A stretch of DNA of 64,000 nucleotides from a virus (lineage: Duplodnaviria; Caudoviricetes). Shown here in pieces: positions 33,944 through 60,132 of this stretch; position 1 is the stretch's first letter, and each line of letters starts with the position of its first letter. The notes under the pieces were generated by a model. That model had not been told where the DNA came from. It did not search any database and worked only from the letters and a program-made list of their open reading frames with translations. The stretch lies in the IMG/VR virus record IMGVR_UViG_3300031994_000013, positions 103,251 to 167,250 of that record; one strand, 5' to 3'. The position numbers and the translations under genes are program-made.

Positions 33944-33944
33944 C

Positions 33945-34290
33945 GCGCCATTTCTTCAAATCTGTATGGTGCAAAAACAGATTTGACGTTGGGGCTATGG
34001 AGCAAAACGCTAGAAGAAATTGCTACCGTGGTTTGCGATAATAACCGCCAAGAGCTTATCTTGCCTTGTAGGTCATTTCCGGAGTGACATAAGATTCTTC
34101 TCTATCTACTATGCCGATAGCATGAAGGTATAGGCGTGTATCACAGCGCGAAATGAATCGTGGAGAATACGGCATTGATAATCCGCTCGGCTTGCCTTCG
34201 AGATAGGCAACGCGTACTTGACCCGCGAATCAAGAACGCAGCCGTTTATAATTTGAGTAGAACTGACAATCCTATAAAAATTATAAACGG
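33945..34290 (+). ncRNA. putative structured ncRNA
   Basis: several nested stems, no credible ORF. Confidence 0.5.
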
Positions 34291-34395
34291 TTTTTATTTG
34301 ACTTTTGATAGAAATTATAATATAATATTATTTAGAAAATGACAAAAGATTATGTAGAGATAATACACAATTAGTAAGGTTGCTTGTAAAAATAT

Positions 34396-34424
34396 TTGAC
34401 TTTTAATAAAAATTATGTTATAAT
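34396..34424 (+). promoter_or_regulatory. sigma-A promoter, duplicated at 34583-34611
   Basis: identical ATTTGACTTTTAATAAAAATTATGTTATAATAAATAT twice. Confidence 0.85.
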
Positions 34425-34625
34425 AAATATACAAAAGAAAGGAATGGAAAATATGCTAATTGAACAAGATAATGAAAAAGAAAATCTTTATAAAATTATT
34501 GATTTTCTAATGGAAGAAATCAAAAATTTACGAAGGGAAAATGCTCGATTAGTAGAACTTCTTGAAAAGAAAGAATAACCATTTGACTTTTAATAAAAAT
34601 TATGTTATAATAAATATGTTGTTAA

Positions 34626-34696
34626 GGGGATTTAGTTTAACGGTAAAATAGATGCTTTGCAAGCATTTGTCATCAGTTCGATTCTGATAGTCTCCA
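34626..34696 (+). tRNA. tRNA-Ala(TGC)
   Basis: cloverleaf, G3:U70. Confidence 0.9.
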
Positions 34697-34697
34697 T

Positions 34698-34770
34698 TGC
34701 GGGATGGCCAAGTGGTTAAGGCAATTGGCTCATAACCAATAGACCGTGGGTTCAAATCCCACTCCCGCTA
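34698..34770 (+). tRNA. tRNA-Met(CAT), initiator-like
   Basis: loop CTCATAA; 1:72 mismatch; lacks the three G-C anticodon-stem pairs. Confidence 0.85.
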
Positions 34771-34775
34771 TTTAG

Positions 34776-35396
34776 TTGTCGGTATTCTTCTGTAAAAACC
34801 GTCACTGCTGGTCAGTTCTACGATGCAGAAAGCAGTATAAACACGGGGCTGTAGAAAAGATAAAGCGAAAAGGTAGAGGCACTGCCTGGGTTCGAGTCCC
34901 AGCGGGTGGCGTGGAGCGTAGAGCCAAAACCCTGATGCACTTAGAGTCTAGCTTCGCTTGAGGGCGGCCACCCAAGAGCGCATACTGAGCCCATAGAGAG
35001 TGGGCGGTGGGGCACGCCACCTTAAACTTAAAGGTGCATCCGCATATCGTTTGCGGTATATAACCATTCTTTGAAATGGTAATCTAGAGGCTATGGTAAG
35101 AGGACCAGATAAGTAGTTGATAGTGAAACAATAACCTTGGCTGAAAAAGAGGATGGAAGGAAAAGGCCCGATTCCTTACCAAATAGCGCTAAAAATTGGT
35201 AAAGCGATGCGGTTCAATCGCACCTCTCACACAGTGTAGGCCACATTGCCTTTGGTGGGTTTGTATTTGGGTAAGACACCTGAATATTGGCAAAGGCGCA
35301 AATGCGTCGGAAAGCCCAATTTCCCAACATACTTTCATGCGTGGGTGGAATAACAAGAGAAAGCGCAGCTTTCGGTCTGTGGTTAATAAAACCGAA
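34776..35396 (+). ncRNA. putative large ornate ncRNA
   Basis: about 620 nt, GC-richer than flanks, many hairpins, embedded T-arm. Confidence 0.6.
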
Positions 35397-35456
35397 TAGG
35401 CGGTAGCAGCAATACTTATAGAAAATTTTGGGAATTAAAATTTTTTATGCCGCCTA
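35397..35456 (+). ncRNA. CAGCAA/Y-like RNA 1
   Basis: TAGGCGGTA/TGCCGCCTA stem + CAGCAA. Confidence 0.65.
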
Positions 35457-35463
35457 GTTATGT

Positions 35464-35535
35464 GGCGTGTTAGTCAAGTGGTAAAGATAACTGGTTTTCA
35501 CCCAGTTGGCTGGAGTTCGACTCTCCAACACGCTA
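35464..35535 (+). tRNA. tRNA-Glu(TTC)
   Basis: cloverleaf, loop TTTTCAC. Confidence 0.9.
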
Positions 35536-35854
35536 TATTGGCAACGTCCGTTACAATTGCTAGCGCGAGCGAGTATGAAAAGACTACGCTTGGGGCGACC
35601 TCTGAGCTAATCCGGAAAGGAAAGCGTGCGGCGGCTAGGCGTCGTAGAAAGTCCAAACTTTCTATGGTAAGGAAAAACTTATTTAATATTGCCACCCAAT
35701 GGGAGCCTCTAAATAAGTCAAGAGTAGAAAAACCCTAGTATTTTTATTGGAATAGAGGGTAATCTTTTGCGGAGATTACGGAAAATGAAAACCGCTCCCG
35801 CCGAACTGCCGGTAGTAGCAAACACCTATTCGTAGGTAAAGGCAGCAGTTTTAA

Positions 35855-35927
35855 CAAGGTGTATCGTAGTAGCTAACGGGCGTCACTTGGGATGACGAAA
35901 TCGGGAGTGCAAATCTCTCCACCTTGA
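35855..35927 (+). tRNA. tRNA-Pro(TGG)
   Basis: cloverleaf, loop CTTGGGA. Confidence 0.88.
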
Positions 35928-36210
35928 TTTCTGCTTGTGTTTAATGAGCACGAGCCTTGTAAAAGAAAATATAGTTCAGCGGGATACTGGCTTATACTAG
36001 TTGACATTTTCTTTAATACAATCTCCAGCGTGAGTAAAAACCGCCTTGGACTGGGTGAGATGCCTATCGTTGCGGCCGCCAACGAAGTAACGTAAACAGT
36101 TATGAGCGGTTATAATTACCTTGCTATCAGGTCTTAATTTAGGATAGCTACTTATAGGTAAGACTATACGGGTGCGGCGTTCGTCAGCTCAGAGATAGCA
36201 TGCCGAATTT

Positions 36211-36351
36211 GCCCGGTTAGCTCAGTCGGTAGAGCATGCGGCTGTGACAGAGAGATGATTTGGTAATCATGTGAGGGACGCCCACGTTGCGAGTTCAATT
36301 CTCGCCTCTGTATTAACCGCAGTGTCGGGGGTTCGAGCCCCTCACCGGGCG
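36211..36351 (+). tRNA. tRNA-Asn(GTT) interrupted by tRNA-like insert 36246-36313
   Basis: TGCGG CTGT|TAA CCGCA after removal. Confidence 0.9.
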
Positions 36352-36450
36352 GTCAAGTTGGAGGATAGAACAGGCAGCTATCGCCCATTGTTAGGAGATG
36401 CGGGAGTGTCGCCCCGCCCAGCATTAATTTTATAAGAATGAGGTAAATTT

Positions 36451-36999
36451 ATGGCTCTAAAAATTCTCAGCCCATGGCAGGTTTGGTATGCTGATGTAAA
36501 GGCAATGTTTCAGGAAGATAATGAAATTGGTGTAATATTTGATAATGATACATTAGAGCTTACTGTGTATGTAGAGAATGCAGATAAGGCTGATGCCCTA
36601 GGACAGCTTCTACCTACTGAAAAGCATTTTGGTAATCAGGTTGTAAAGGTTAGCGTCATTCCCGCGAATGTACCTAAGACCGCATTAAAGCTAAATCGTG
36701 CGAATCTTTATGAAAGGGCATTTGCTGATAATCCTGCACTAGAAAAGGTAGTGACAATTGAAGGCGTTATGTCTAATACACTAACTTATGTTGTCTTTAA
36801 GAAACAAGTAGTACAGTATTATATTGATGACCTTGGCGATATCTATGGTAATAGAACTACTTTGTATCAAGAGATTGCAAAGAATATATTTGAAGCAGCG
36901 GAAGGCGTGTTTTTCTGTACGGCAAATGAAACAGAATTTAAGTTAAATATGACTAATCATGGTTGGATTACAACTACTTGTTGTAGTTCAAGTAATTGA
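36451..36999 (+). CDS. hypothetical phage protein
   Basis: 182 aa, VFKKQVVQYY.DDLGD. Confidence 0.7.
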   Translation: MALKILSPWQVWYADVKAMFQEDNEIGVIFDNDTLELTVYVENADKADALGQLLPTEKHFGNQVVKVSVIPANVPKTALKLNRANLYERAFADNPALEKVVTIEGVMSNTLTYVVFKKQVVQYYIDDLGDIYGNRTTLYQEIAKNIFEAAEGVFFCTANETEFKLNMTNHGWITTTCCSSSN

Positions 37000-37058
37000 C
37001 TTTTTTCTAAATTTATGCTATAATAAATATATCAAAAGGGAACGAAAGTTCCCAATAT

Positions 37059-37130
37059 GGCCCTATGGTCTAATGGCTATGATACGTGACTGTCTATCAC
37101 GAGGTTGCAGTTCAATTCTGCGTAGGGTCG
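37059..37130 (+). tRNA. tRNA-Asp(GTC)
   Basis: cloverleaf, G73. Confidence 0.9.
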
Positions 37131-37138
37131 TTGCCTTA

Positions 37139-37258
37139 AAGACGGTTCAGCAATTATTTTGAAAATTTATGCAGTATAATAAAGGGGCGGGTTCGAATCC
37201 CGCAGCATAAGGTGGGCACTTATGTTTGGTGTAGCGGTAGCATTCATTTCGCCGTCTT
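37139..37258 (+). ncRNA. CAGCAA/Y-like RNA 2 with permuted tRNA domain
   Basis: AAGACGG/CCGTCTT; T-arm, closed acceptor, D-arm order. Confidence 0.8.
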
Positions 37259-37264
37259 GATTTT

Positions 37265-37352
37265 CCTACTCAAGCATAATTGGTACATGCCACGGCCTTA
37301 TAAGCCGGAGACCCTCACAAGGTTAGTCCACGTTCAAGTCGTGGGAGTAGGA
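37265..37352 (+). tRNA. tRNA-Ile(TAT) with long variable region
   Basis: CCTACTC/GAGTAGG, loop CTTATAA, A73. Confidence 0.8.
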
Positions 37353-37355
37353 TTT

Positions 37356-37472
37356 TAGACCTGTCAGCAATTATTTCTTTTGCATGTGGAGCACGTATGT
37401 GATGGTTCGAATCCATCTTTGGGCCGATGCGCCCAAATAGCTCAATGGTAGAGCGCGTAATAAGTGGGTCTA
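37356..37472 (+). ncRNA. CAGCAA/Y-like RNA 3 with permuted tRNA domain
   Basis: TAGACC/GGTCTA; GATGGTTCGAATCCATC, TTTGGGC/GCCCAAA, TAGCTCAATGGTAGAGC. Confidence 0.8.
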
Positions 37473-37551
37473 GTTTTTATATGGAACTAATCTATCCTGA
37501 GTTCCTGCGGTTCAAGGATAGGGCGGTGGCTGCCCAAAGTCGCAATTATAT

Positions 37552-37669
37552 GGCCCCTTAGCCCAATTGGCAGAGGCAATAGACCATCAATAGCCAGAGC
37601 GAAATGAGGTCATCACTCATATTGATGTTCAAAATCTATCAAGTATCAGTTCGAATCTGATAGGGGCTA
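37552..37669 (+). tRNA. tRNA-Leu(CAA) interrupted by mini-tRNA insert 37585-37628
   Basis: ATAGA C|TCAAAA TCTAT after removal. Confidence 0.85.
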
Positions 37670-37748
37670 TTAAAAAAATCGCGGGACGCGAAGAAAAAAG
37701 AGTAATGCGTCTGCTTATATAATACTATTTATGTAGGAGGCGATAATT

Positions 37749-38354
37749 ATGAAAAAATGGGAAAAATTCTCTGAAAAAGAGTTGCTTGAGATTATTCAAA
37801 ATAGTCGAAGTTATAGAGAAGTCGCTCAAAAATTAGGTTATAATCCTGATAGTGGTAGTGGTATGAAAGCTATTAAGGATATGATAGAGACGAAACAATT
37901 TGATATATCGCATTTTTTAGGGCAGGGTTGGAATAAAAATAATTTTGATTATTCGCGTTTCCAGTATGGGAAAAATATTAAAGCCGTATTAATGTTAGAT
38001 GCTTTAATTAATTTACGCGGCAGAAAATGTGAAAAATGCGGTTTAACAAAATGGGAAAATTTTCCTATTCCACTAGAAGTACATCATATTGATGGAGACC
38101 ATTTGAATAATACATTAGATAATTTACAAATTCTTTGCTGCAATTGTCATGCTTTAACAGCGAATTTTAAAGGACGAAATCAGCTTAGCGTAGAACGACA
38201 AAATGAAAAAGTATCTGAAGAACAATTAGTAGAAGCATTAAAGACAACTTCTAATGTTCGTCAAGCTCTTTTAAAAGTTGGCTTGACTAGTCGTGGGCAC
38301 AATTATGATAGAGCATATGATTTGATATATAAATATCAAATAAAACAACAATAA
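37749..38354 (+). CDS. HNH homing endonuclease
   Basis: CEKC, LEVHHIDGDHLNN..NLQILCCNCH. Confidence 0.9.
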   Translation: MKKWEKFSEKELLEIIQNSRSYREVAQKLGYNPDSGSGMKAIKDMIETKQFDISHFLGQGWNKNNFDYSRFQYGKNIKAVLMLDALINLRGRKCEKCGLTKWENFPIPLEVHHIDGDHLNNTLDNLQILCCNCHALTANFKGRNQLSVERQNEKVSEEQLVEALKTTSNVRQALLKVGLTSRGHNYDRAYDLIYKYQIKQQ

Positions 38355-38359
38355 TATTA

Positions 38360-38462
38360 TAGGCGTTTTCAGCAATTACCTTTATAGGTTATGGGTTCGA
38401 GTCCCATTTTGCAATCCTTTTTGCGAATCGTCCAATAGGTAGGACAATAAATAAGACGCCTA
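38360..38462 (+). ncRNA. CAGCAA/Y-like RNA 4 with permuted tRNA domain
   Basis: TAGGCGTTT/AGACGCCTA; ATGGGTTCGAGTCCCAT, TTTGCAA/TTGCGAA, GTCCAATAGGTAGGAC. Confidence 0.8.
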
Positions 38463-38791
38463 GTATTTTAAAGATGGATTTTTTCCATCTTATTTTTATA
38501 ATTGACTTTTCTCTAAAATTATGATATAATTTTTTTAGAAAAAAGGAAATGAGGAAATAATATGGATAAGGAAACTCTAAGTAGCACTGCGACAAAAAGT
38601 CAATTTATTGATTCTATTTATAATTGGTTAATGCGCACGCTCGATGAGAAGGGCAACGGACAATATAAGGAATGTTTTCAAAAAGAGGGCTCAAGTATAA
38701 TTTGTTCTCTTCCAGATAATTATTTTAATAGTTATACTATTCCTCATGGCACTAAAATTGAAATGAAATTTATTAGTAAAAAGGGATAATA

Positions 38792-39226
38792 ATGAAAATT
38801 TATACTTCTTATTTCGCGCAAATGCGTAATTTTCCTAAAAATCTTGTTTCGCTTTCAACCGCAGTTTGGAATCCTAAATGGTTGCCGCTTGGGCGCGATA
38901 AGCAAGGTCATATTTGGCTAGATATTCCGCCGCTAAAGCCAGGATATAATTGTAATGGCTTATGTAATGGAAAATGTAATCCAAAGCATCCACAGGATTG
39001 TGCTTTTCTTCAAGAATATCGCAAACAGTTGAACGGTATAGATATTCATAATATTCTAAATGAATTACAAGTTTTAAAAAATGATATTGAAGTTGCGGAG
39101 AGCCTAGAGAATGTAGAGTTTGTGCTATTATTTTTTGAGACTCCGGATAATCCTTGTAGTGAGCGGCAAGTCGTTATTGAATGGCTTAAAGAAAATAATA
39201 TCGAAACTGAGGAATGGAGAAAATGA
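38792..39226 (+). CDS. DUF488-like protein
   Basis: MKIYTSYF, LLFFETP..CSER..W. Confidence 0.6.
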   Translation: MKIYTSYFAQMRNFPKNLVSLSTAVWNPKWLPLGRDKQGHIWLDIPPLKPGYNCNGLCNGKCNPKHPQDCAFLQEYRKQLNGIDIHNILNELQVLKNDIEVAESLENVEFVLLFFETPDNPCSERQVVIEWLKENNIETEEWRK

Positions 39227-39719
39227 TAAAAATTATTAAGCATGGGCACGCGCAATATCATATGACATGTAAATTTTGTGATTGTTTATTCTCTTTTGAA
39301 GACAGTGATATAAAATTTTCTGGTAATCAGCGAGATTGGATAGAATATATCGAATGCCCAGAATGCGGGCATGAGATTGATATTGTTAATCGTGCGTTCT
39401 ATAAGTTTAAGGAGAGTAAAGACTAATATAATGAAAGATAGGAAAATTTTTTTTATAGCAGTGTTAATTGCTATATTACTTTTTATAGGCGTAGTATTTT
39501 TACAAGAATCGTCCTGTAACATAGTATATAATAATGGCATTTGTACAAGATGCGGAGGACACTATATTTTTCAGCAGGCGGTAGGACATCGATATAATAT
39601 TCGATATATTTACCAATGTGATAAATGTGGCAAGTTAATTGAAATTAATTCTATTCGTTAATTATTTGACTTCTTTCTAAATTTATGCTATAATTATTAT
39701 AGAAAGTGAGGGAAAGAAA

Positions 39720-40067
39720 ATGAAGGAATACAGTATGAAATCTCATAATCGCCGCGCTCATCAGCGTTGGCTTAATAAGTTTTGCCGCGATGTTAATAAA
39801 TCTATTTATGATGATAATCTGTGGCGCGGGCGCTTTGTTGTAGAACAGGTTTCTACTCAGATGGATTGGTTTGAGGATAAAAGCGGTGGTATCCTTCGTT
39901 GTGTTCTTCGCTTTCGTGATAAGAAAACTGGCTGTACTAAGCTTTGTTATACCGATTGTCTTGAAGTTGCTTGGAATATGTTTTTTCAGATGAATGACTT
40001 TATTGTAAAAGATTGTGCTGTTTGGGATAAGGAAGACCCTTATAAGGAGATTGAATCATGGAGATAA
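39720..40067 (+). CDS. hypothetical phage protein
   Basis: promoter and RBS upstream; DNLWRGRF. Confidence 0.65.
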   Translation: MKEYSMKSHNRRAHQRWLNKFCRDVNKSIYDDNLWRGRFVVEQVSTQMDWFEDKSGGILRCVLRFRDKKTGCTKLCYTDCLEVAWNMFFQMNDFIVKDCAVWDKEDPYKEIESWR

Positions 40068-40265
40068 AGAGACCCGTTACTGTAGAGTTTAATTATTATA
40101 ATGATAATAACGAATTTGATGACGATGTTAATTTAACTTTTAGAACTACGCCAGATATGACTATTGGGCAATTACACGCTTTTTGTAAGCGTTTTGCTAT
40201 TGCACTTAGTTTTTCACCAAAGCAGGTTGAAGAAGCTTTTGGTGAAGATATAGAAGATAGAATTT

Positions 40266-40350
40266 AGAAGGGTGCCTGAGTGGTCAATAGGAGCGGTTTG
40301 CTAAATCGTCGTAGGGTAACCTACCGCAAGTTCGAATCTTGTCCCTTCTG
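40266..40350 (+). tRNA. tRNA-Ser(GCT)
   Basis: class II cloverleaf, G73. Confidence 0.9.
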
Positions 40351-40431
40351 TTCGCCAATTTAACTGGTTGGCGCGCCAGCTATGGATTAAATAGCGACCC
40401 AGCTCGCGGGCATTCTAAATAGCGAGCACGT

Positions 40432-40503
40432 ACCCTTCTAGGCTAACGGAAAGACCATACGGCTACGAACCGTAAAATGAAAGTTCGATTCTTTCGGAGG
40501 GTG
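40432..40503 (+). tRNA. tRNA-Arg(ACG)
   Basis: TACGG CTACGAA CCGTA; imperfect D stem. Confidence 0.8.
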
Positions 40504-40511
40504 TCAATTAT

Positions 40512-40621
40512 GCGGTGGTATCCAAGCAGACAAAGGGGCCAACCGGTAAGTTTGGTGCCTACGCCGGTATGCTAGCTAGAACCGTGGGCTTCGCAGGTGC
40601 AAATCCTGACCCGCCGCACCA
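40512..40621 (+). tRNA. aberrant Tyr-like tRNA with enlarged variable arm
   Basis: GCGGTGG/CCGCCGC-ACCA; loop CGGTAAG. Confidence 0.5.
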
Positions 40622-40629
40622 TTTATTAT

Positions 40630-40713
40630 GCGTCAGTGTGACTAGTAGCGAGGTCAGGTGACTGTAAATCACCCACATTAGAAACATCGGTGGTGCAATT
40701 CCATCCTGGCGCA
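40630..40713 (+). tRNA. tRNA-Tyr(GTA)
   Basis: GGTGA CTGTAAA TCACC. Confidence 0.85.
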
Positions 40714-40720
40714 TTAGCCG

Positions 40721-40792
40721 AGACCAGTCAGCAATAATTGTATTTTTTGCTAGAAATGCAGCGGGTCGGCTCCGCCTAAGATGAACTGGTCT
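40721..40792 (+). ncRNA. CAGCAA/Y-like RNA 5
   Basis: AGACCAGT/ACTGGTCT + CAGCAA. Confidence 0.7.
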
Positions 40793-40798
40793 AGTTTT

Positions 40799-40946
40799 GT
40801 GCCCGTAGCTCAGTTGGTAGAGCACTTGACTTTGGGGTAGTAATGTAAAGAGCATACTATTAGAGACGTCTAATAGAGGACAAGGTGCAATACCTTGATA
40901 CTCCACCATAATCAAGGGGTCGCGAGTTCGAGCCTCGCCGGGCACA
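40799..40946 (+). tRNA. tRNA-Lys(TTT) interrupted by tRNA-like insert 40834-40908
   Basis: CTTGA CTTT|TAA TCAAG after removal. Confidence 0.9.
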
Positions 40947-40950
40947 TTAT

Positions 40951-41022
40951 AGGAGCTTAGGACAATGGCTAGTCTTTCTGTCTCCAAAACAGACGATGGG
41001 CGTTCAAATCGCTCAGCTCCTG
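40951..41022 (+). tRNA. tRNA-Trp(CCA)
   Basis: cloverleaf, loop CTCCAAA. Confidence 0.9.
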
Positions 41023-41038
41023 TCACTTATGAAAAAAT

Positions 41039-41114
41039 GCGTCTGAACCCTGACGGTCGGGGGAGGGCCTGCAAAACCCTTTTTTATTAGTTGGTTCAAC
41101 TCCAACCAGGCGCT
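41039..41114 (+). tRNA. tRNA-Cys(GCA)
   Basis: loop CTGCAAA, U73. Confidence 0.85.
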
Positions 41115-41842
41115 TAAAGGAGAGATAATATTATGAATGAACTTAAAAGATTAGTTAACCAAAAGACTGACCGCCCCGTAACACCTACGACTACAACAAC
41201 CGTGCCAGTCTCACAGTCTGTAACAGCCACTTCCCTTCAATATGGTTGGATTTGTCCTAAATGTGGCTCTGTGATGGCACCAAATCAAACAAGTTGTATT
41301 TTCTGCATTCCAACTTTTAATGTTACGACTGCGACGCCAAATATGTCACCTGTAGTAATTTGTACTAGTAAAGGTTATAGTCGGGACTGAAATATTTGAC
41401 TTTTATTCAAATTTGTGCTATAATATATACATAAAGAATGAAAGAAAGGATTGATAACAGTATGCGTAAGTTGGTTTTTTCTTCTTCTTGGAGTAGGGTT
41501 AAGCAAGCGAAGATGCTAGATGACCCTCAGTAACTGGCGCTTTATCATCAGTAGGTGATACGAAATTACGGTAAGTCGTTATACGGCGCCACCGTTTTTT
41601 TAAAAAAAGAAAGGTAGAATAAGTTATGTTTAGTTATGTAGTTACTTTTTTCGACAATGAAATTAGAGCAACCACGACCGAAAAGGGCATTGTGGCGGCG
41701 GAAACCTATGGCAAAGCCGCGGATAGGCTTGTGAGCTTTTATGGAAAATCTTTTCTAATGACTATGGCTCTTACTGAACTTAATGACATTCTAACCGAAG
41801 AAGAAATTACAGAAGAGTTTGAAACTCAGGGAGAAGATTAAA

Positions 41843-42088
41843 ATGTATCATCGTACTCATATTCGTTTAATTACACAAACCGATGCAGCAAATTTCGTAG
41901 CGAGTCTTAATCGTGATGGCACGACTGACCACTATGTGCTTGAAACAGTAGATGGTAAGGTCCGTGTTAGTGCCCGTTCATTACTTGGCGTGCTTTATTT
42001 TGTTTCAGAGCATAATAAGGAAACTTATTTAGTTAATGAAACTAATGATGGAGTGATTCCAAGCGGTATCGACCAGTATCGTATTTAA
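41843..42088 (+). CDS. HPr-like protein
   Basis: AANFV...VSARSLLGVL (Ser46-like motif). Confidence 0.6.
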   Translation: MYHRTHIRLITQTDAANFVASLNRDGTTDHYVLETVDGKVRVSARSLLGVLYFVSEHNKETYLVNETNDGVIPSGIDQYRI

Positions 42089-42101
42089 TGCGATACTTTG
42101 A

Positions 42102-42232
42102 TGGCGTGTAGCCAAGTGGTTAAGGCACAGGACTTTCAGGCAATAGCATAAGTAATGCCATAGAATAATAGTTCAAATCTATTTTGCCTGTGACTCCTGT
42201 ATTCGTAGGTTCGACCCCTACCACGCCAGCCA
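42102..42232 (+). tRNA. tRNA-Gln(TTG) interrupted by tRNA-like insert 42137-42191
   Basis: CAGGA CTTT|GAC TCCTG after removal; encoded CCA. Confidence 0.92.
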
Positions 42233-42237
42233 TTTAT

Positions 42238-42299
42238 TAGGCTTTGTCAGCAACTATTACAAAAATTTGACTTGAAATCAAAGGAACAAAGAAAGCCTA
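42238..42299 (+). ncRNA. CAGCAA/Y-like RNA 6
   Basis: TAGGCTTT/AAAGCCTA; internal TTTGA CTTGAAA TCAAA. Confidence 0.75.
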
Positions 42300-42309
42300 G
42301 AAATTTTTA

Positions 42310-42409
42310 TAGACCAGCACAGCCATTTATTTTAACAATGGATAAATTATTTTTTTCTCAATAAAAAAAATATAGAAGGTTCAAATCCTTCAAAATTAAA
42401 ACTGGTCTA
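42310..42409 (+). ncRNA. CAGCCA/Y-like RNA 7
   Basis: TAGACCAG/CTGGTCTA; CTCAATA loop + T-arm GAAGGTTCAAATCCTTC. Confidence 0.7.
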
Positions 42410-42764
42410 GTTTTTATTACAAGAAAGGACGCAAAATAATGGAAGTAATGTATCATCGTAAGAACGGTAAGCGCTATGAAGTTTATGATTATATAACAGA
42501 TAAGCATACCATTGCTATTTGTTACGATACGGCACAGGCGGGGCAGTGCGGCCAGGGTTGGTGTAGAATTCCTTTGAAAGAATTGGTTCCAGAATGTCAT
42601 GCAAATAAGACTACAGGGCAATTTGAGTCTAACACTATTAAAAATGCCATTAAACGAAATTTACAACCAGTAGCTTGGCGTTGTACTGATGGTACAGTAT
42701 TTGACCATTCTAAGATTGATGAAGCAATTGAATATCAAAGAACACTTATGACGACGGAGCAAGA

Positions 42765-43205
42765 ATGAGACAGTTAATAATCGCGCGAAAAGATTTACAG
42801 ATGAGCCCTGGTAAATTGGCGGCACAAGTAGCACATGCAAGTTGGGCATTTTTATCGCAGCAAATTCGCAGCTGTACTATTAACGAACAAGATACTCAAA
42901 ATACGTGGATTAAATTATGTATTAATACTGATACGTATAATGAATGGTTTTGTGGTATCTTTACAAAAACTGTTTGCGAAGCTAAAAATTATAATCAACT
43001 GATGAAAGCAGTTGACTATGCACGCGAATTGGGGTTAGAAGAGGGAGTAGATTTTTTCCTCATTAAAGATGCTTGTCTCACGGAGCTTACTCCCGAAGAA
43101 ACTGATGAAAATGGTGTTGGACGCACATTAACTTGTATTGGTTTTCGTCCATTACCTGACGAAATCGCCCATGCGATTTCAAAGCATTATCAACTTTATA
43201 AGTAA
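42765..43205 (+). CDS. pth2: peptidyl-tRNA hydrolase Pth2 family
   Basis: RKDLQMSPGKLAAQVAHA, IKDACLTE, TCIGFRP. Confidence 0.9.
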   Translation: MRQLIIARKDLQMSPGKLAAQVAHASWAFLSQQIRSCTINEQDTQNTWIKLCINTDTYNEWFCGIFTKTVCEAKNYNQLMKAVDYARELGLEEGVDFFLIKDACLTELTPEETDENGVGRTLTCIGFRPLPDEIAHAISKHYQLYK

Positions 43206-43208
43206 ATA

Positions 43209-43338
43209 ATTGTGGTGGCGGAATAGGTAGACGCTAGACGGTTTGAACCCGTGCATCAAGGAAGACTTGGCTTGGCTATGAGGTCATAGATTTTACTCAG
43301 AAGGAAATCATGTAAGGTGCAAATCCTTACCCACAATT
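43209..43338 (+). ncRNA. tRNA-like RNA (Leu-type D/T arms, no normal anticodon arm)
   Basis: ATTGTGG/CCACAAT, GGCGGAATAGGTAGACGC, GTAAGGTGCAAATCCTTAC. Confidence 0.7.
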
Positions 43339-43427
43339 TAGAATGTAACGGCTGATTACATATACATTTTCGCAATCTATATAGATACAATCAAGTTACC
43401 CCATGCGATGCAAGGTAACATCAGCCA

Positions 43428-43513
43428 TCGGCCTACACAGCAATTAATTTCAAGAAAATTCTATCTGTTGAAGAAAGCATATTCTAGCGGGTTGAAAACC
43501 CGTAATAGGCCGA
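43428..43513 (+). ncRNA. CAGCAA/Y-like RNA 8
   Basis: TCGGCCTA/TAGGCCGA; GCGGG TTGAAAA CCCGT. Confidence 0.75.
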
Positions 43514-43518
43514 GTTAT

Positions 43519-43708
43519 GCTCTTGTAGCTCAATGGTAGAGCAGCGCACTTGTCGAGTTAGTTTAAAGTAAAACACCCGAATCACAGGGAAAAGACCGTA
43601 TGATAAACTAATTGATTGACGAATCAATTAGGCGAAGATATGTGAGTTCGTAACTCACACTCGGCTCCAGTAATGCGCAGGTTGTAGGTTCAAGTCCTAT
43701 CGGGAGCT
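43519..43708 (+). tRNA. tRNA-Thr(TGT) interrupted by tRNA-like insert 43552-43669
   Basis: GCGCA CTT|GTAA TGCGC after removal. Confidence 0.9.
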
Positions 43709-44526
43709 TTTAACTGTCATCTTAGGAAGTGTTATTTATGAGGACGACGGCAGAAAAACGACATAATGATTATACGAAAGCAATCCGTAAGCGTAGGATT
43801 GACCGCGAGACACAGCCCAGTGGATATGACTGGTACAATAATCTTCATCAATATAGTAAAAATAAGATTCATTGTTCTTGTCCAATGTGTTCTGTGAAAA
43901 CTAATAATCGCGGCAATAATGGTTGGAAACCCAATACCTTATGGCGTATCACCGATCAAAAGAAGTTGGATGCTTTACAATATAACGAGGAAGATGAATA
44001 ATCTTCCTCGTTTTTTATTTGACTATTTCTTAAAATTATGATATAATTTATATACAATATTGGATAGGCGAAATATTAATCAAGAAAAGAGGGAGCCATA
44101 ATGGAAAAGAAAGAATTAGTTGCAGGTAAGCGCTATCAATGGCCAGATGTAACTCCTGGCGGCCGCATGATTAATGGTCTTTTTACTGGAAAATACGAAA
44201 AGAACGGTAACGCTTTATTACAGTGTCGTAATGGCGACATCTGGTCTGTTTCACCACAAAATTGTGAGCCAATGCCAAGAAAGGAAAAATGATATGAAGA
44301 ATTTTATTAAATTAACTAATACTGATGGGACTGCACTTTATATTAATTATAAAATTATTGAAAGTTTATCTCAACATAAAGATAAAGATTATACTTATAC
44401 TATCCTAGCCACAATTGGGTCAGAAGATGGTTTTTATAGAGTAAAAGAATCACCAGAAGCAATTCTAGCATTAATTGATGTTTTGACAAATTAAAAAAAA
44501 TATAGTATAATGAAAGGAATGATAGT

Positions 44527-45012
44527 ATGCGAAAGCCTATTCTTTATATACTCTGCGGTTGTCCAGGATGCGGAAAAACATATTGGGCAAATAAATTTAT
44601 GTATAATCTTATTAATACAAAGTATGTTTCGCGCGATGAAATTCGCCTTTCTTTACTTAATAATGATGAAGAATATTTTTCACACGAAGAAGAAGTGTTT
44701 ACTAAATTTGTAGCTATGATAAGAGCTAATTTAGTGGATGGATATGATTGTATTGCAGACGCCACTCATTTAAATGTAAAATCTCGCAAAAAGCTTATCC
44801 ATGCTCTTGATTTTTATGGTAAATTAGATTGTCAAATTATTTTTGTATATTTCAACGCTCCTTTGGAAGTATGTCTTGGCCGCAACGAACAGCGTGAAGG
44901 TCGTGCTCGTGTTCCTGTAAATGTAATTCAATCTATGCGAGAACGCTTTCAAAAGCCAGCTATGACAGAGGATGAAAGATGTATTGGACTTATGCTAATG
45001 AAAGGATATTAA
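44527..45012 (+). CDS. polynucleotide kinase-like P-loop protein (AAA_33)
   Basis: GCPGCGKT, SRDEIR, DATH, RNEQR. Confidence 0.85.
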   Translation: MRKPILYILCGCPGCGKTYWANKFMYNLINTKYVSRDEIRLSLLNNDEEYFSHEEEVFTKFVAMIRANLVDGYDCIADATHLNVKSRKKLIHALDFYGKLDCQIIFVYFNAPLEVCLGRNEQREGRARVPVNVIQSMRERFQKPAMTEDERCIGLMLMKGY

Positions 45013-45290: not shown

Positions 45291-45956
45291 ATGGGAAAGA
45301 TTTATAAAGTTACAAATAAAATTAATGGTAATATTTATATTGGCCAAACACGACAACCAATTAATACTCGTTGGTTAAAGCACTGTTATTCAGCAGAAAC
45401 CTCTAATGATAAAGATTATTTTTGTCCTCTACATAATGCTATTCGTAAATATGGACGAGATAGTTTTCTAATAGAAGAAATTGAAGACTGTGATAATGAT
45501 TTATTAAATGAACGTGAACGTTATTGGATTCAATTTTATGATAGTTATAATAATGGTTATAATGCCGCTTTGGGTGGAGAAGGGCATACTAAATATGACT
45601 ATGATAAAATTATAGATTATTTTTTAAAACATGGCAATAATCTTTTAGCTACTTGTCAAGAATTTAATATTTATGACCAAGTGGTGTATACAGCTTTACA
45701 ATCTAAAAATATTGATTATAAAGCATTAAAAAATATAAATCCAAAATGTAAATATGATAAATGGATTCTATTAGTAGAACACAATCTTATTTTCAAACAC
45801 ATAACGGACATTGACCTTTATTTACATAAAAATAATGCACATGGAAATATACGACGATGCCTAAATGGAATTACAGAAAAAGCTTATGGCTATCATTGGA
45901 AGGAGATAGAAAAAGATGGAAATCTTTTTAACCTCGGATACTCATTTTTCACATAA
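45291..45956 (+). CDS. GIY-YIG homing endonuclease
   Basis: KIYKVTN..YIGQT, RW..H, E..WI, GYN; NUMOD1-like AYGYHW tail. Confidence 0.9.
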   Translation: MGKIYKVTNKINGNIYIGQTRQPINTRWLKHCYSAETSNDKDYFCPLHNAIRKYGRDSFLIEEIEDCDNDLLNERERYWIQFYDSYNNGYNAALGGEGHTKYDYDKIIDYFLKHGNNLLATCQEFNIYDQVVYTALQSKNIDYKALKNINPKCKYDKWILLVEHNLIFKHITDIDLYLHKNNAHGNIRRCLNGITEKAYGYHWKEIEKDGNLFNLGYSFFT

Positions 45957-57432: not shown

Positions 57433-58761
57433 ATGTCTTATTATGGTTATGTAGTAAAGGTGGAGCATCTGCGCCCGCACTCTAATGCTGATAGGCTTCA
57501 GGTGGCTACTTTCTTCGGAAACGATACTATCGTTAGCCTTGATACTCAGCTTGGCGAGATGGGTATTTACTTTCCTGTAGACGGTCAGCTTTCTGAGCGT
57601 TATTGCGCAGTAAATGATCTGGTGCGCCGTAAGGATGAGAACGGTAACTACTGCGGTGGTTATCTTGACCCTGACAAGCGCAACATCAAGGCTATCAAGC
57701 TTCGTGGCGAGAAGTCTGATGGTTTGTTTATGCCTATCACTTCACTGGCCGATTTCTGCACTATCTCCGATCTTAAGGTGGGTGACCGCATTGATGTTCT
57801 GAATGGTGAGGAAATTTGCCACAAGTATATTCCTCATAGCAATGCATCCGTGCAATATCATGGCGCGAAGGCACCTCGCAAGGCAAAGGCTAACATTGCT
57901 CCTACCTTCTACGAGCACGTAGATACCGAGCAGCTTGCTTATAACCTCGATAAGTTTAAGGTCGGCGATACTGTACAATTGACCCTGAAGATGCACGGCA
58001 CTTCTGGCCGTACTGGCTATCTGCCTCTACTTCAGAAGCGTTCTATCTGGGATAAGATTTTCCATCCTCACAAGGAGATTTATGAGTATGGTTATATAAC
58101 CGGAACTCGTCGTGTAGTTCTTGCGGGCGACCGCAAGGGCGGTTACTACGAGTCTGATGACTTCCGTCGCGCGATGGCGGCTAAGTTTGAGGGCAAGCTT
58201 CGTAAGGGCGAGGTAGTGTATTACGAAATCGTGGGCTTCCAGGGCTACGAGGGCGCACCTATCATGTCTGAGGTTCAGAACTCTAAGGTGAAGGACCCTG
58301 AGTTCTCTAAGCAGTATGGTAAGACCACCATATTCTCTTATGGTTGCGCGGTTGAAGGTGGATATACTGACGACCAGCCTTGCTGCGAAGTATATGTCTA
58401 TCGTATGACTATGGTAAACGCCGATGGTGATGTGGTAGAGTATTCTCCCGCACAAATTAAGGAGCGCTGCGAGCAGATGGGCGTTCATACTGTAATGAAG
58501 TTCGAGACCTTCGTAATTCCTGAGAATATAAATCCCGGCGAGTATGTTCTCCGTAAGGTAGAACAGTACTTTGATGGTCCTGACCCTATCGGTAAGACCC
58601 ATGTGCGCGAAGGTGTAGTGGCGCGTATCCTTAACCGTCCTAACTTCGCAGTTTATAAGCATAAGAATTTTAGTTTCAAGGTTCTTGAAGGCATCGCTAA
58701 GGATGAGGCCGTTGCGCCGGATATTGAGGAGGCTCAGGAACTAATTGAAGAAGGAGAATAA
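57433..58761 (+). CDS. ATP-dependent RNA ligase (Rnl2/DRB0094-like) with N-terminal OB-like domain
   Basis: HSNADRL, KLRGEKSDG; motif I KMHGTS, YEIVG, REGVV, KHKN..F. Confidence 0.88.
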   Translation: MSYYGYVVKVEHLRPHSNADRLQVATFFGNDTIVSLDTQLGEMGIYFPVDGQLSERYCAVNDLVRRKDENGNYCGGYLDPDKRNIKAIKLRGEKSDGLFMPITSLADFCTISDLKVGDRIDVLNGEEICHKYIPHSNASVQYHGAKAPRKAKANIAPTFYEHVDTEQLAYNLDKFKVGDTVQLTLKMHGTSGRTGYLPLLQKRSIWDKIFHPHKEIYEYGYITGTRRVVLAGDRKGGYYESDDFRRAMAAKFEGKLRKGEVVYYEIVGFQGYEGAPIMSEVQNSKVKDPEFSKQYGKTTIFSYGCAVEGGYTDDQPCCEVYVYRMTMVNADGDVVEYSPAQIKERCEQMGVHTVMKFETFVIPENINPGEYVLRKVEQYFDGPDPIGKTHVREGVVARILNRPNFAVYKHKNFSFKVLEGIAKDEAVAPDIEEAQELIEEGE

Positions 58762-59232: not shown

Positions 59233-60132
59233 GTGGTAATAATGCGAGATATATATGTCATGGCAGATTTGCATGGATGCTATGAACTTTATAGCGCTAT
59301 GATAGATTGGTGTTTCGCACAAGATAACGAATGTACTGTTGTGTTTTTAGGCGATGCATGTGATAGAGGCCCATATGGTTACAAAATTATGCGCGAACTA
59401 CTTGATAATCCACAAGTTATCTATCTAAAAGGCAATCATGAGGATATGTTTGTCCAAGCCGCGCATGAAATTATAGGTTTTTGTGCTCAATCTGATGAAT
59501 TGTATAATCAACTTAAATCTAAAAATAGGCAATTTGCTCAAGAATTTTGTCGTAATAGCACAAATATTACTATGCCAGCTCTTTCTCTTTGCTTATATAA
59601 TGGCGGCGCTGAAACTATACAAGATTGGATTGCAGATGGCTCAGATGAAAATTTCGTAGATGCCATTGAGAACCTTCCGCTCACTTTCTCTTATGAAAAT
59701 TTCGACTTTTGCCACGCTGGTTCAACTTATGAATATTTTAAGCGGGCATCTGATGCGGAATACAATAAAACCACAGTAGATGGTAATGTGAAGCAACAAA
59801 TGCTTTGGGATAGAAAGTTGTTGGCACTTGGTTGGGAAACTGGACGCATTGGCGTCTTCGGGCATACCCCCACAGTATCACTCCCCAAGGGAATCTATGG
59901 GAACGATCAAAGCCTTAAAAATGCACATCCGTGTGTATGGCATGATAAAATGGGTGAGTGGTCAAAGAGTGATAAGCGCCAAGGCTTAAAAATTGATATG
60001 GATACCGGCGCTGTGTGGTCGTATCGCGCGTATGTTCTTAACTGTTTAACTGGTAAAATATTTGGATTCTATGAAGAAACCCATGAAGATGGTTCCATTA
60101 TAAAAATTATAGATGAACAAAAAGTTGTATAA
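59233..60132 (+). CDS. Ser/Thr phosphatase-like metallophosphoesterase
   Basis: DLHG, GDACDRG, GNHE, HAG, GHTP, DTG. Confidence 0.9.
   Translation: MVIMRDIYVMADLHGCYELYSAMIDWCFAQDNECTVVFLGDACDRGPYGYKIMRELLDNPQVIYLKGNHEDMFVQAAHEIIGFCAQSDELYNQLKSKNRQFAQEFCRNSTNITMPALSLCLYNGGAETIQDWIADGSDENFVDAIENLPLTFSYENFDFCHAGSTYEYFKRASDAEYNKTTVDGNVKQQMLWDRKLLALGWETGRIGVFGHTPTVSLPKGIYGNDQSLKNAHPCVWHDKMGEWSKSDKRQGLKIDMDTGAVWSYRAYVLNCLTGKIFGFYEETHEDGSIIKIIDEQKVV

What the first reader, a model, noticed from the sequence alone, without database searches (positions are those of the whole stretch)
36211..43708. tRNA-in-tRNA introns: five tRNA genes whose anticodon loop holds a nested tRNA-shaped insert
Seen: Asn(GTT), Leu(CAA), Lys(TTT), Gln(TTG) and Thr(TGT) have canonical bodies, but each anticodon loop is split by a 44-118 nt insert. 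Every insert has a 6-7 bp acceptor stem, a 5 bp/7 nt T-arm and a discriminator (plus CCA in two). Deleting exactly insert nt 1 to discriminator/CCA restores a 7-nt loop with an anticodon matching the body. The inserts differ in sequence and in position (32/33, 34/35, 35/36), and no intact copy of these five isoacceptors is in the window. They are too short for group I/II introns, and I see no bulge-helix-bulge. Established: RNase P cuts before nt 1 leaving a 3'-OH upstream; RNase Z cuts after the discriminator leaving a 5'-P downstream. Inference: host tRNA maturation enzymes act as the splicing endonuclease and an ATP-dependent ligase joins the halves, a tRNA splicing route I do not know to be described.
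Basis: partly seen in the sequence, partly recalled or inferred. Interest (0 to 1): 0.97.

Follow-up and report, generated by a model that had tools for sequence, protein, structure and literature searches.

The report
tRNA-shaped introns in phage tRNAs
Five transfer-RNA genes of a 167-kb sheep-rumen phage are each split in the anticodon loop by a small insert that is itself shaped like a tRNA, a little-known kind of phage intron whose edges sit where ordinary tRNA-trimming enzymes cut, although nobody has yet shown how it is removed.

Summary
ARAGORN with introns allowed finds exactly five interrupted tRNA genes (Asn, Leu, Lys, Gln, Thr) at the stated places. No intact copy of these isoacceptors exists in the whole 167,250-bp phage genome.

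Each insert (44-118 nt) has a 7-position acceptor stem stacked on a 5-bp/7-nt T-arm. One rule fits all: cut before acceptor base 1, and cut after the discriminator, or after CCA where CCA is encoded. It leaves a 7-nt loop in 14 of 14 genes (11 distinct inserts; window plus relatives). The loop's anticodon matches the tRNA body in all five window genes. Two relatives carry uninterrupted alleles with exactly the predicted loops.

The phage encodes an Rnl5-like nick-sealing RNA ligase, but no RtcB, RNase Z, RNase P RNA or splicing endonuclease.

The RNase P / RNase Z / ligase route is therefore well fitted by anatomy but unproven. The RNA runs served only contigs, and these showed no spliced form.

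The feature is not new as an observation. Lak megaphage "enigmatic" tRNA introns that "may encode a tRNA" were published in 2019, and this scan has noted the same design on other DNA (95 notes, at least 79 genomes). I found no mechanism in print.

The parts
36211..36351 (+). tRNA-Asn(GTT) gene; exons 36211-36245 and 36314-36351
   Evidence: ARAGORN -i. Spliced form called Asn gtt. Top body match is Asn gtt.
36246..36313 (+). 68-nt cloverleaf-like insert. Acceptor 6/7 (G1.A72), T-arm 5 bp/7 nt, discriminator T, no CCA. Leaves CTGT+TAA.
37552..37669 (+). tRNA-Leu(CAA) gene with short variable arm; exons 37552-37584 and 37629-37669
   Evidence: The seven best body matches are all Leu. Short 76-78-nt Leu(caa) genes are common in relatives.
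37585..37628 (+). 44-nt minihelix insert. Acceptor 7/7, T-arm 5 bp/7 nt (loop not canonical at position 58), discriminator T. Leaves C+TCAAAA.
   Evidence: CTCAAAA is a modal loop of intact Leu(caa) genes (12 of 26), against 1 of 26 for ARAGORN's alternative TTCAAAA.
40799..40946 (+). tRNA-Lys(TTT) gene; exons 40799-40833 and 40909-40946
   Evidence: Rfam 57 bits. Spliced form called Lys ttt. Top body matches are Lys ttt.
40834..40908 (+). 75-nt cloverleaf-like insert ending A-CCA. Acceptor 6/7, T-arm 5 bp/7 nt. Leaves CTTT+TAA.
   Evidence: Identical 75/75 in L036 and L037, whose exons differ at 3 positions.
42102..42232 (+). tRNA-Gln(TTG) gene ending in encoded G-CCA; exons 42102-42136 and 42192-42232
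   Evidence: The ten best body matches are all Gln ttg. The relative L020 has an uninterrupted Gln with loop CTTTGAC at the same site.
42137..42191 (+). 55-nt insert. Acceptor 7/7, small hairpin, T-arm 5 bp/7 nt (all A-U but one pair), discriminator T. Leaves CTTT+GAC.
   Evidence: The T-arm is not in the minimum-energy fold.
43519..43708 (+). tRNA-Thr(TGT) gene; exons 43519-43551 and 43670-43708
   Evidence: Rfam 49.3 bits. Top body matches are Thr tgt.
43552..43669 (+). 118-nt insert ending T-CCA. Acceptor 7/7 (one G.U), extra hairpins, T-arm 5 bp/7 nt. Leaves CTT+GTAA.
   Evidence: L036 has a different 67-nt tRNA-like insert at the same loop position of its Thr(TGT) gene.
57433..58761 (+). 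Rnl5-like ATP-dependent RNA ligase (N-terminal OB fold plus nucleotidyltransferase; candidate sealing enzyme). The only ligase-like gene in the genome.
   Evidence: PHROG 968 'RNA ligase' E 3.7e-69. Weak Pfam RNA_ligase and PHA02142 OB. Profile hit to Naegleria RNA ligase, E 0.0037. AF2 model pLDDT 74, Foldseek E 3e-17. Single PF09414 hit in the genome.
44527..45012 (+). P-loop kinase (AAA_33), a possible polynucleotide kinase. Relevant only to the heal-and-seal rival.
   Evidence: Pfam AAA_33 E 1.6e-20
59233..60132 (+). Calcineurin-like / NinI-like metallophosphoesterase two genes after the ligase. A possible 3'-end healing enzyme, relevant to the rival.
   Evidence: Pfam Metallophos E 9.6e-11; PHROG 246

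Best explanation
These are tRNA-shaped introns of the kind first noted in Lak megaphages. Each insert is a self-contained tRNA mimic (acceptor stem, T-arm, discriminator, sometimes CCA) nested in the anticodon loop of a functional phage tRNA.

Inferred mechanism. The host's tRNA end-processing enzymes read the inner mimic as a tRNA. RNase P cuts before its base 1. An RNase Z-type enzyme cuts after its discriminator, or after CCA where CCA is encoded. The two exon halves stay held together by the outer cloverleaf, with a 3'-OH/5'-phosphate nick in a restored 7-nt anticodon loop. The phage's Rnl5-like ATP-dependent RNA ligase seals that nick.

Shown here: the anatomy, the boundary rule, the intactness and uniqueness of the exons, uninterrupted alleles in relatives, and a ligase of matching chemistry.

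Inferred, not shown: that splicing happens at all, which nucleases cut, the end chemistry, and that this ligase seals.
For: 1. Boundary rule. Cutting from acceptor base 1 to the discriminator, or to CCA if encoded, leaves exactly 7 nt in 14 of 14 interrupted genes: 5 in the window and 9 in L036, L106, L108, L109, L110 and L132. These hold 11 distinct inserts.
2. Predicted loops. They are the commonest loops of intact tRNAs of the same anticodon in relatives: CTGTTAA 7/7, CTTTTAA 14/15, CTTTGAC 26/27, CTTGTAA 13/17, CTCAAAA 12/26.
3. Identity. The body, with the loop removed, has as top hit among 579 intact tRNAs one with the rule's anticodon in 9 of 11 cases, including all 5 window genes. This overrides ARAGORN's own placement for Lys and Gln.
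4. Empty sites. L108 has an uninterrupted tRNA-Glu that differs from L106's interrupted one by exactly the 44 nt from acceptor base 1 to the A of CCA, with no edge ambiguity. L020, with about 97% identical flanks, has an uninterrupted Gln with loop CTTTGAC where the window has the insert.
5. Shape kept, sequence not. Across the 11 inserts, 127 of 132 stem cells pair, against 52-64 of 124-132 with the partner slid by 1-3. G53-C61 and C56 are invariant (11/11) and each stem position shows 1 to 6 pair types. Two relatives' inserts score as tRNAs on their own in Rfam (47.6 and 47.8 bits).
6. Variable position. The insert sits at 32/33, 34/35 or 35/36, so what is recognised must lie in the insert, not in the outer tRNA.
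7. Exons under selection. These are the only copies of the isoacceptors in a complete genome. The window and L036 Lys exons differ by a compensatory 2:71 pair, and the L106 and L108 Glu genes by a compensatory anticodon-stem pair.
8. Enzymes. The phage has an Rnl5-like 3'-OH/5'-P nick-sealing ligase and no RtcB, T4 Rnl1 family, CCA-adding enzyme, RNase Z fold, RNase P RNA or EndA (the T4 Rnl1 search, also rang in none of its control genomes, so it is uninformative).
9. Precedent for the 3' rule. Methanomicrobial RNase Z enzymes cut just after the discriminator in CCA-less pre-tRNAs and just after CCA in CCA-containing ones (PMC7479834, abstract). T. maritima RNase Z cuts after CCA (PMC3161902, passage).
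Against: - No RNA evidence. The four runs laid were contigs only. RNA-run contigs carry the unspliced genes. Every joint at the tRNAs carried foreign letters between its two sides, or came from a diverged relative's contig.
- The ligase is conserved at the same place in 21 of the 137 related loci searched, most of which showed no such insert in the stretch I hold. It is therefore not specific to intron carriers.
- Solved Rnl5 enzymes are described as sealing nicks in duplex RNA (entry titles). A nick in an anticodon loop is a different substrate.
- B. subtilis RNase Z is strongly inhibited by CCA with Mg2+ (abstract). The host is unknown, and the precedents for cutting after CCA are archaeal or Thermotoga.
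- A kinase and a phosphoesterase in the window fit a different end chemistry.
- Two relatives (L109, L132) could not be assigned by body similarity. If L132 is Thr, as ARAGORN says, its cuts would be offset by one base from the rule. Devoto et al. also mention a one-base offset, in their case from the software-predicted intron.
- My structural test was lenient (acceptor at least 6/7, T-stem at least 4/5, G.U allowed), and the shuffles kept only mononucleotide content.
Confidence: 0.55

Rival explanations
1. The inserts are real introns, but another endonuclease (host or an unrecognised phage protein) removes them and leaves 2',3'-cyclic phosphate and 5'-OH ends. The ends are then healed by the phage P-loop kinase and metallophosphoesterase and sealed by the ligase, as in T4 Pnkp/Rnl1 repair of anticodon-loop breaks. 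On this reading the tRNA shape serves folding, stability or a second life of the excised RNA.
For: The window holds all three activities of a heal-and-seal kit: AAA_33 kinase at 44527-45012, metallophosphoesterase at 59233-60132 and ligase at 57433-58761. The ligase also occurs in relatives without detected inserts, as expected for a general repair kit.
Against: It does not explain why both edges coincide with the RNase P and RNase Z sites of the inner mimic in 14 of 14 genes, including the switch between discriminator and CCA. No candidate nuclease was identified. Positions in the outer loop vary, so a nuclease that reads the outer anticodon loop would not fit.
Confidence: 0.2
2. The genes are not spliced. 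Either tRNA-derived mobile inserts have inactivated them, or the whole nested RNA is the product: a non-decoding double tRNA mimic, comparable to the YrlA-like RNAs next to them, acting as decoy or scaffold.
For: No spliced RNA was seen. The region is full of non-decoding tRNA mimics (YrlA-like hits) and encodes a Ro-like RNA-binding protein (phrog_850). The Lys insert is identical in a phage that is otherwise about 72-90% identical, as for a recently spread mobile element. Homing-endonuclease genes sit nearby.
Against: A dead gene or a pure scaffold has no reason to keep exactly 7 loop bases outside the insert, with the anticodon that fits the body, in 14 of 14 genes. Nor would it keep compensatory changes in exon stems. 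These are the only genes for the five isoacceptors in the genome, whereas relatives keep intact ones at the same places.
Confidence: 0.12
3. The inserts splice or cleave themselves, as a miniature group I/II intron or as paired small self-cleaving ribozymes.
For: True group I introns do sit in tRNA anticodon loops of a relative: L132 7832-8044, 54.5 bits, above Rfam's cut-off of 50.
Against: At 44-118 nt the inserts are far below the size of the group I introns seen here (222-349 nt). The Rfam scan of 33500-44500 at E up to 1 lists 22 matches, none of them to an intron or self-cleaving ribozyme family. The five inserts share no sequence.
Confidence: 0.03
4. Archaeal or eukaryal-type splicing: a bulge-helix-bulge motif cut by a splicing endonuclease and joined by RtcB.
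For: The inserts lie in the anticodon loop, as most such introns do.
Against: The genome has no EndA domain and no RtcB. Positions are 32/33 to 35/36, not 37/38. The two cut sites are separated by a 7-bp helix, with the 5' cut flush at the helix end, rather than lying in two 3-nt bulges around a 4-bp helix (read).
Confidence: 0.01

Closest known systems
'Enigmatic' tRNA introns of Lak megaphages (Devoto et al. 2019, PMC6784885; restated for jumbo phages in PMC13037316, 2026)
   Same: Both are introns in phage tRNA anticodon loops. The Lak tRNA-Thr(TGT) intron 'itself may encode a tRNA'. The same intron is identical across genomes, and alleles with and without it exist (passages). Here I see all of these: tRNA-shaped inserts, a Lys insert identical in L036/L037, and uninterrupted alleles in L020 and L108.
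   Different: The published cases are about 540-kb Prevotella phages and jumbo phages with alternative genetic codes; this is a 167-kb rumen phage, and its frames listed are open under table 11 (no other code was tried). The papers give no removal mechanism and no boundary rule. I could not see their supplementary tables.
T4 Pnkp/Rnl1 repair of anticodon-loop breaks in host tRNA-Lys (recalled knowledge)
   Same: A phage-encoded ATP-dependent RNA ligase seals a break in a tRNA anticodon loop whose halves are held together by the cloverleaf.
   Different: There the break is damage made by a host anticodon nuclease and needs end healing. Here the break would be programmed, made by tRNA-processing enzymes, and would need no healing. 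The ligase here is Rnl5-like, not Rnl1 (no PF09511 hit in the genome, though that search also rang in none of its controls; fold match).
tRNA-like elements used as RNase P/RNase Z processing signals: MALAT1 mascRNA and mitochondrial tRNA punctuation (recalled knowledge)
   Same: A tRNA-shaped element inside a longer transcript is cut out at its 5' end by RNase P and at its 3' end by RNase Z.
   Different: In those cases the flanking RNAs are not rejoined. Here the flanks are the two halves of another tRNA and must be ligated.
Group I introns in tRNA anticodon loops (bacteria, plastids, phages)
   Same: Same host genes and the same loop. A relative of this phage (L132) has one.
   Different: Group I introns are self-splicing ribozymes of 200 nt or more with a conserved core. 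These inserts are 44-118 nt, have no Rfam match to that family, and are tRNA-shaped.
Archaeal and eukaryal BHB tRNA introns, and split or permuted tRNAs
   Same: All are protein-dependent tRNA splicing in which structure, not sequence, defines the cuts.
   Different: There is no BHB geometry, no EndA, no RtcB, and the setting is bacterial.

Membership tests
Lak-type tRNA-shaped phage tRNA introns | The insert interrupts the anticodon loop of a phage-encoded tRNA gene | tested here: met
   5 of 5 genes
Lak-type tRNA-shaped phage tRNA introns | The insert itself folds like, or is predicted as, a tRNA | tested here: met
   Acceptor plus T-arm in 5 of 5. At a lowered threshold ARAGORN of 5 inserts tRNA-like. 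Two relatives' inserts pass Rfam's tRNA cut-off on their own.
Lak-type tRNA-shaped phage tRNA introns | The same intron is nearly identical across genomes, and alleles with and without it exist | tested here: met
   Lys insert 75/75 identical in L036/L037. Uninterrupted alleles in L020 (Gln) and L108 (Glu).
Lak-type tRNA-shaped phage tRNA introns | Sequence homology to the published Lak introns | not tested
   I did not fetch Lak sequences, and the papers' supplements were closed. A blastn of 36100-43800 against 50,697 GenBank phage records gave only HNH-gene hits.
Group I intron | Conserved catalytic core detectable by Rfam RF00028; length of about 200 nt or more | tested here: not met
   No RF00028 match at E up to 1 in 33500-44500. 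Inserts are 44-118 nt. Positive control in the relative L132, 54.5 bits.
BHB (archaeal/eukaryal) tRNA intron | Bulge-helix-bulge at the splice sites, plus splicing endonuclease and RtcB-type ligase | tested here: not met
   A 7-bp helix lies between the cut sites and the 5' cut is flush with it. No PF01974 or PF01139 in the genome. The host genome could not be tested.
RNase P substrate (inner mimic) | Coaxial acceptor stem (7 bp) plus T-stem (5 bp) with a T-loop; cut before base 1 | tested here: met
   Geometry 7+5 with 0 nt between the stems in 11 of 11 distinct inserts; G53-C61 and C56 invariant. Actual cleavage is not testable with these tools.
RNase Z substrate (inner mimic) | Cut after the discriminator; in some enzymes after an encoded CCA | tested here: inconclusive
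   The 3' edges follow exactly this dual rule in 14 of 14 genes, and the rule has been measured for archaeal RNase Z (abstract). The host and its RNase Z type are unknown, and B. subtilis RNase Z is inhibited by CCA.
Rnl5-type nick-sealing RNA ligase (gene 57433-58761) | N-terminal OB domain plus nucleotidyltransferase domain with a motif I lysine | tested here: met
   Pfam PHA02142 OB (7-102) and RNA_ligase (180-417), both just below cut-off. Profile hit to the Naegleria ligase OB domain, E 0.0037. Full-length Foldseek match E 3e-17, TM 0.54/0.69, on a model of pLDDT 74. K186, H188 and G189 are invariant in 13 homologues; assigning them to motif I is my reading. Activity not tested.

The most novel reading that the evidence does not exclude
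Bacterial viruses use a third, ribozyme-free and endonuclease-free way of splicing tRNA. The intron is a tRNA mimic, so the cell's own RNase P and RNase Z excise it as if maturing a tRNA, and a phage Rnl5-type ligase rejoins the anticodon loop directly, because the ends are already 3'-OH and 5'-phosphate. The excised mimics, some CCA-ended and one carrying an alanine-type acceptor stem, may then act as small RNAs of their own. The introns spread between phage tRNA genes by recombination or homing.
Probability: 0.5. Interest if true: 0.9.

Novelty: new member of a known kind. Interest (0 to 1): 0.72.

Why it matters
If the inferred route is right, it would be a tRNA-splicing pathway distinct from both known ones: self-splicing group I introns, and the BHB endonuclease with RtcB or Trl1. 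It would be built entirely from enzymes that every bacterium already has, plus one phage ligase. It would also explain the "enigmatic" introns reported in Lak and other large phages since 2019.

This window is a good test bed:
- It has five introns in one complete 167-kb genome.
- Both 3'-end types are present (discriminator-ended and CCA-ended).
- The inserts sit at three loop positions.
- Sizes range from a bare 44-nt minihelix to a 118-nt elaborated form.
- Uninterrupted alleles exist in relatives.
- The candidate ligase lies in the same window.

The boundary rule gives exact, falsifiable junctions and end chemistries. It also bears on how phages keep their own tRNA supply, and perhaps on how they shield or time it.

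Tried and rejected
1. Laying public runs on 36100-43800. Three RNA runs and one DNA run were served as contigs only. RNA-run contigs cover the unspliced Asn, Leu and Gln genes. The joints at 40824/40917 carried foreign letters between the two sides, so they are other organisms' tRNAs. The joint at 43552/43670 came from a diverged relative's 3.9-kb contig. Loose ends at 40833 and 42191 continue into intact tRNAs, but with arms unlike the window's. This gives no verdict on splicing either way.

2. blastn of the region against 50,697 GenBank phage records found only HNH-gene matches.

3. A locus search with ORF 36451-36999 gave one distant locus of no use.

4. ARAGORN's interrupted tRNA-Tyr in L002/L031 (49-nt insert) does not look tRNA-shaped by eye. 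I left it out of the 14-gene count without running the test on it. I also left out L036 'Gly ccc' i27 and L072 'Stop' i190, and ARAGORN calls that contain the CAGCAA/Y-RNA-like stem (L113, L114, L117, L121, L123, L128, L134-L137, L140, L143, L145), the 222-349-nt inserts (L109 Leu, two in L132) and two 9-10-nt 'introns'. The 14 genes are those I judged by eye to be short and tRNA-like, so the '14 of 14' is conditional on that choice.

5. Co-occurrence of ligase and introns was not discriminating. The ligase is present in 21 of the 137 related loci searched, including many without inserts, and most loci do not reach the ligase position.

6. The single-sequence AlphaFold model of the ligase was useless (pLDDT 31). 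phmmer against PDB gave only chance hits. The 13-sequence alignment rescued both.

7. Literature searches for a described mechanism or for 'tRNA-like intron' and related phrases found nothing beyond the two papers named.

8. The odd tRNA-like genes folded gave no clear nested insert.

Full report
WHAT THE WINDOW IS. The window is bases 103251-167250 of a complete 167,250-bp virus record with direct terminal repeats. Near-identical DNA is held by sheep-gut metagenome runs. Bases 33.8-43.8 kb hold a tRNA array mixed with small ORFs and structured RNAs.

THE OBSERVATION. Default ARAGORN finds ten tRNA genes and none for Asn, Leu(CAA), Lys, Gln or Thr. With introns allowed it finds five more, at 36210-36352, 37551-37670, 40798-40947, 42102-42232 and 43519-43708. 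Their inserts are 68, 44, 75, 55 and 118 nt. Rfam's tRNA model also spans four of them across the insert. All 15 tRNA matches of the whole genome lie in the window, so no intact copy exists elsewhere.

ARAGORN calls two of the genes 'Gln' and 'Glu', but this comes from where it chooses to place the intron. With the loop removed, the best-matching bodies among 579 intact tRNAs of relatives carry those same anticodons for all five. For Asn the margin over a Val tRNA is one point.

Each insert has a 7-position acceptor stem (7/7 in Leu, Gln and Thr; 6/7 in Asn and Lys). It abuts a 5-bp T-stem with a 7-nt loop, followed by one discriminator base, and by CCA in Lys and Thr. Shuffled inter-stem stretches pass the same lenient test in 20-295 of 20,000 trials per gene. 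The five inserts share no sequence beyond 7-nt words.

RELATIVES. I fetched loci around homologues of the Pth2 gene (42765-43205) and of the Ro-like gene (48290-49834). This gave about 1.8 Mb from 137 loci, with 604 ARAGORN tRNA calls (205, 399).

I judged nine further interrupted genes to be of the same short, tRNA-like type:
- L036 Lys and Thr
- L106 Glu and Leu
- L109 Glu and one gene of uncertain identity
- L108 and L110 Asn
- L132, one gene of uncertain identity

The other ARAGORN 'intron' calls were Y-RNA-like stems, 222-349-nt inserts or oddities. I set them aside, and they are listed under Tried and rejected.

One rule fits every one of the 14 genes (11 distinct inserts). Remove from acceptor base 1 to the discriminator, or to CCA when CCA follows the discriminator, and exactly seven loop bases remain. 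The resulting loops are the commonest loops of intact tRNAs with that anticodon in these phages. For Leu, the rule's CTCAAAA occurs in 12 of 26 intact genes, against 1 of 26 for ARAGORN's alternative TTCAAAA.

Across the 11 inserts, 127 of 132 stem positions pair. With the partner slid by 1-3 bases, 52-64 of 124-132 pair. G53-C61 and C56, the signature of a T-loop, are invariant. Two relatives' inserts pass Rfam's tRNA threshold on their own.

EMPTY SITES AND SELECTION.
- L108 carries an uninterrupted tRNA-Glu. It differs from L106's interrupted gene by a compensatory anticodon-stem pair and by exactly the 44 nt from acceptor base 1 to the A of CCA. The edges are unambiguous.
- L020 has flanks about 97% identical to the window. 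It has an uninterrupted tRNA-Gln with loop CTTTGAC where the window has the 55-nt insert. The tRNA body there is much more diverged than the flanks, so the whole gene seems to have been exchanged.
- The 75-nt Lys insert is identical in L036 and L037, phages otherwise about 72-90% identical in DNA. The Lys exons differ at three positions, two of them a compensatory 2:71 pair.
- L036's tRNA-Thr(TGT) carries a different, 67-nt, CCA-less tRNA-like insert at the same loop position as the window's 118-nt CCA-ended one.

So the exons are kept functional, the shape of the insert is what is conserved, and inserts come and go.

MECHANISM. The insert position varies (32/33, 34/35, 35/36), so the cuts must be specified by the insert.

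The 5' edge is the RNase P site of the inner mimic. The 3' edge follows a dual rule: after the discriminator, or after an encoded CCA. This is what was measured for methanomicrobial RNase Z enzymes (PMC7479834, abstract) and, for CCA-containing precursors, for T. maritima RNase Z (PMC3161902, passage). By established enzymology (recalled), both enzymes leave 3'-OH and 5'-phosphate. The nicked tRNA would then be a direct substrate for an ATP-dependent RNA ligase.

The genome has one ligase-like gene, 57433-58761:
- PHROG 'RNA ligase', E 3.7e-69.
- A profile hit to the OB domain of the Naegleria nick-sealing ligase.
- A 13-sequence AlphaFold model (pLDDT 74) that matches that ligase over its whole length (E 3e-17).

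The genome has no RtcB, CCA-adding enzyme, RNase Z fold, RNase P RNA or splicing endonuclease. A search for the T4 Rnl1 family also found nothing, but it rang in none of its control genomes and so proves little. The nucleases would therefore be the host's.

WHAT SPEAKS AGAINST, OR IS OPEN.
- No spliced RNA was seen. Only contigs were served, and they show unspliced genes and other organisms' tRNAs.
- The ligase is conserved in 21 related loci, most without detected inserts.
- The window also encodes an AAA_33 kinase and a metallophosphoesterase. This fits a general heal-and-seal kit and a rival end chemistry.
- Rnl5 enzymes are known for duplex nicks.
- B. subtilis RNase Z is inhibited by CCA, and the host is unknown.
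- L109 and L132 could not be assigned by body similarity. If L132 is Thr, its cuts are offset by one base.

WHAT IS KNOWN. Devoto et al. 2019 reported tRNA introns in Lak megaphages. [quoted passage not shown] A 2026 survey repeats that such introns 'could encode another tRNA' (PMC13037316, passage). Six full-text searches found no described removal mechanism.

This scan's own notes hold the same design on other DNA: 95 notes in at least 79 genomes. These are unchecked AI notes, used here only as leads.

VERDICT. This is a further, unusually rich member of a published but unexplained kind.

Noticed in passing
window 40834-40908: The Lys insert's acceptor end reads G1-C72, G2-C71, G3.U70, G4-C69, A73, CCA. 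From recalled knowledge this is the identity set of alanine tRNA, so the excised insert might be chargeable with alanine or may derive from a tRNA-Ala gene.
   Followed up: no
window 43552-43669; L108 12402-12525; L132 4045-4192; L106 14445-14564: Four CCA-ended inserts begin with the same G1-C72 / U2.G71 pairs although the rest of their sequence differs. This may be a shared recognition element or common descent.
   Followed up: no
window 37132-37480, 38360-38465, 40715-40798, 42240-42420, 43400-43518: There are repeated Y-RNA-like (YrlA-like) tRNA mimics with a CAGCAA... / ...GGTCTAGTTTT closing stem (Rfam YrlA 36 and 30 bits, below cut-off). A Ro-like RNA-binding protein lies at 48290-49834 (DUF2828/DUF7788, phrog_850).
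   Followed up: partly
window 36354-36425 and 35932-36076: A skipping-rope RNA (51 bits, above cut-off) lies directly after tRNA-Asn. A cow-rumen-3-like RNA (66 bits, below the 86.7 cut-off) lies before it. L036 has a full cow-rumen-3 hit (99.9 bits).
   Followed up: no
window 43208-43335, 40513-40622, 41038-41114, 40630-40713: Several odd tRNA-like genes occur here. One is a Ser(UGA)-like gene with a variable region of about 58 nt, identical in L020. One is a 110-nt CCA-ended tRNA-like RNA. One is a 77-nt RNA that matches the Sec model at 33 bits. One is a Tyr-like Rfam hit that ARAGORN misses.
   Followed up: partly
window 37749-38354, 45291-45956, 49905-50825: Free-standing homing-endonuclease genes (HNH, GIY-YIG, HNH) lie among and just after the tRNA genes. 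They might drive the exchange of tRNA alleles.
   Followed up: no
window 44527-45012, 57433-58761, 59233-60132: The window has a kinase, a ligase and a phosphoesterase, the three activities of an RNA heal-and-seal kit, though the genes are not adjacent.
   Followed up: partly
L132 7832-8044 and 8571-8767; L109 18002-18427: The same phage group also has true group I introns in tRNA anticodon loops (54.5 bits in L132). L109's 349-nt insert was not tested at the permissive threshold.
   Followed up: partly
L106 18924-19492 and 13902-14013; L108 9029-9140: ROOL RNA (315 bits) and drum RNA (about 70 bits) lie beside the tRNA arrays of relatives.
   Followed up: no
L002, L003, L004, L010: Relatives carry a CTA-anticodon (amber suppressor) tRNA, which suggests TAG recoding in those phages. 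The window has none.
   Followed up: no
window 42765-43205: A Pth2-type peptidyl-tRNA hydrolase gene sits between tRNA-Gln and tRNA-Thr. It is conserved at that place in rumen relatives and is widespread in gut metagenomes (489 relatives).
   Followed up: no
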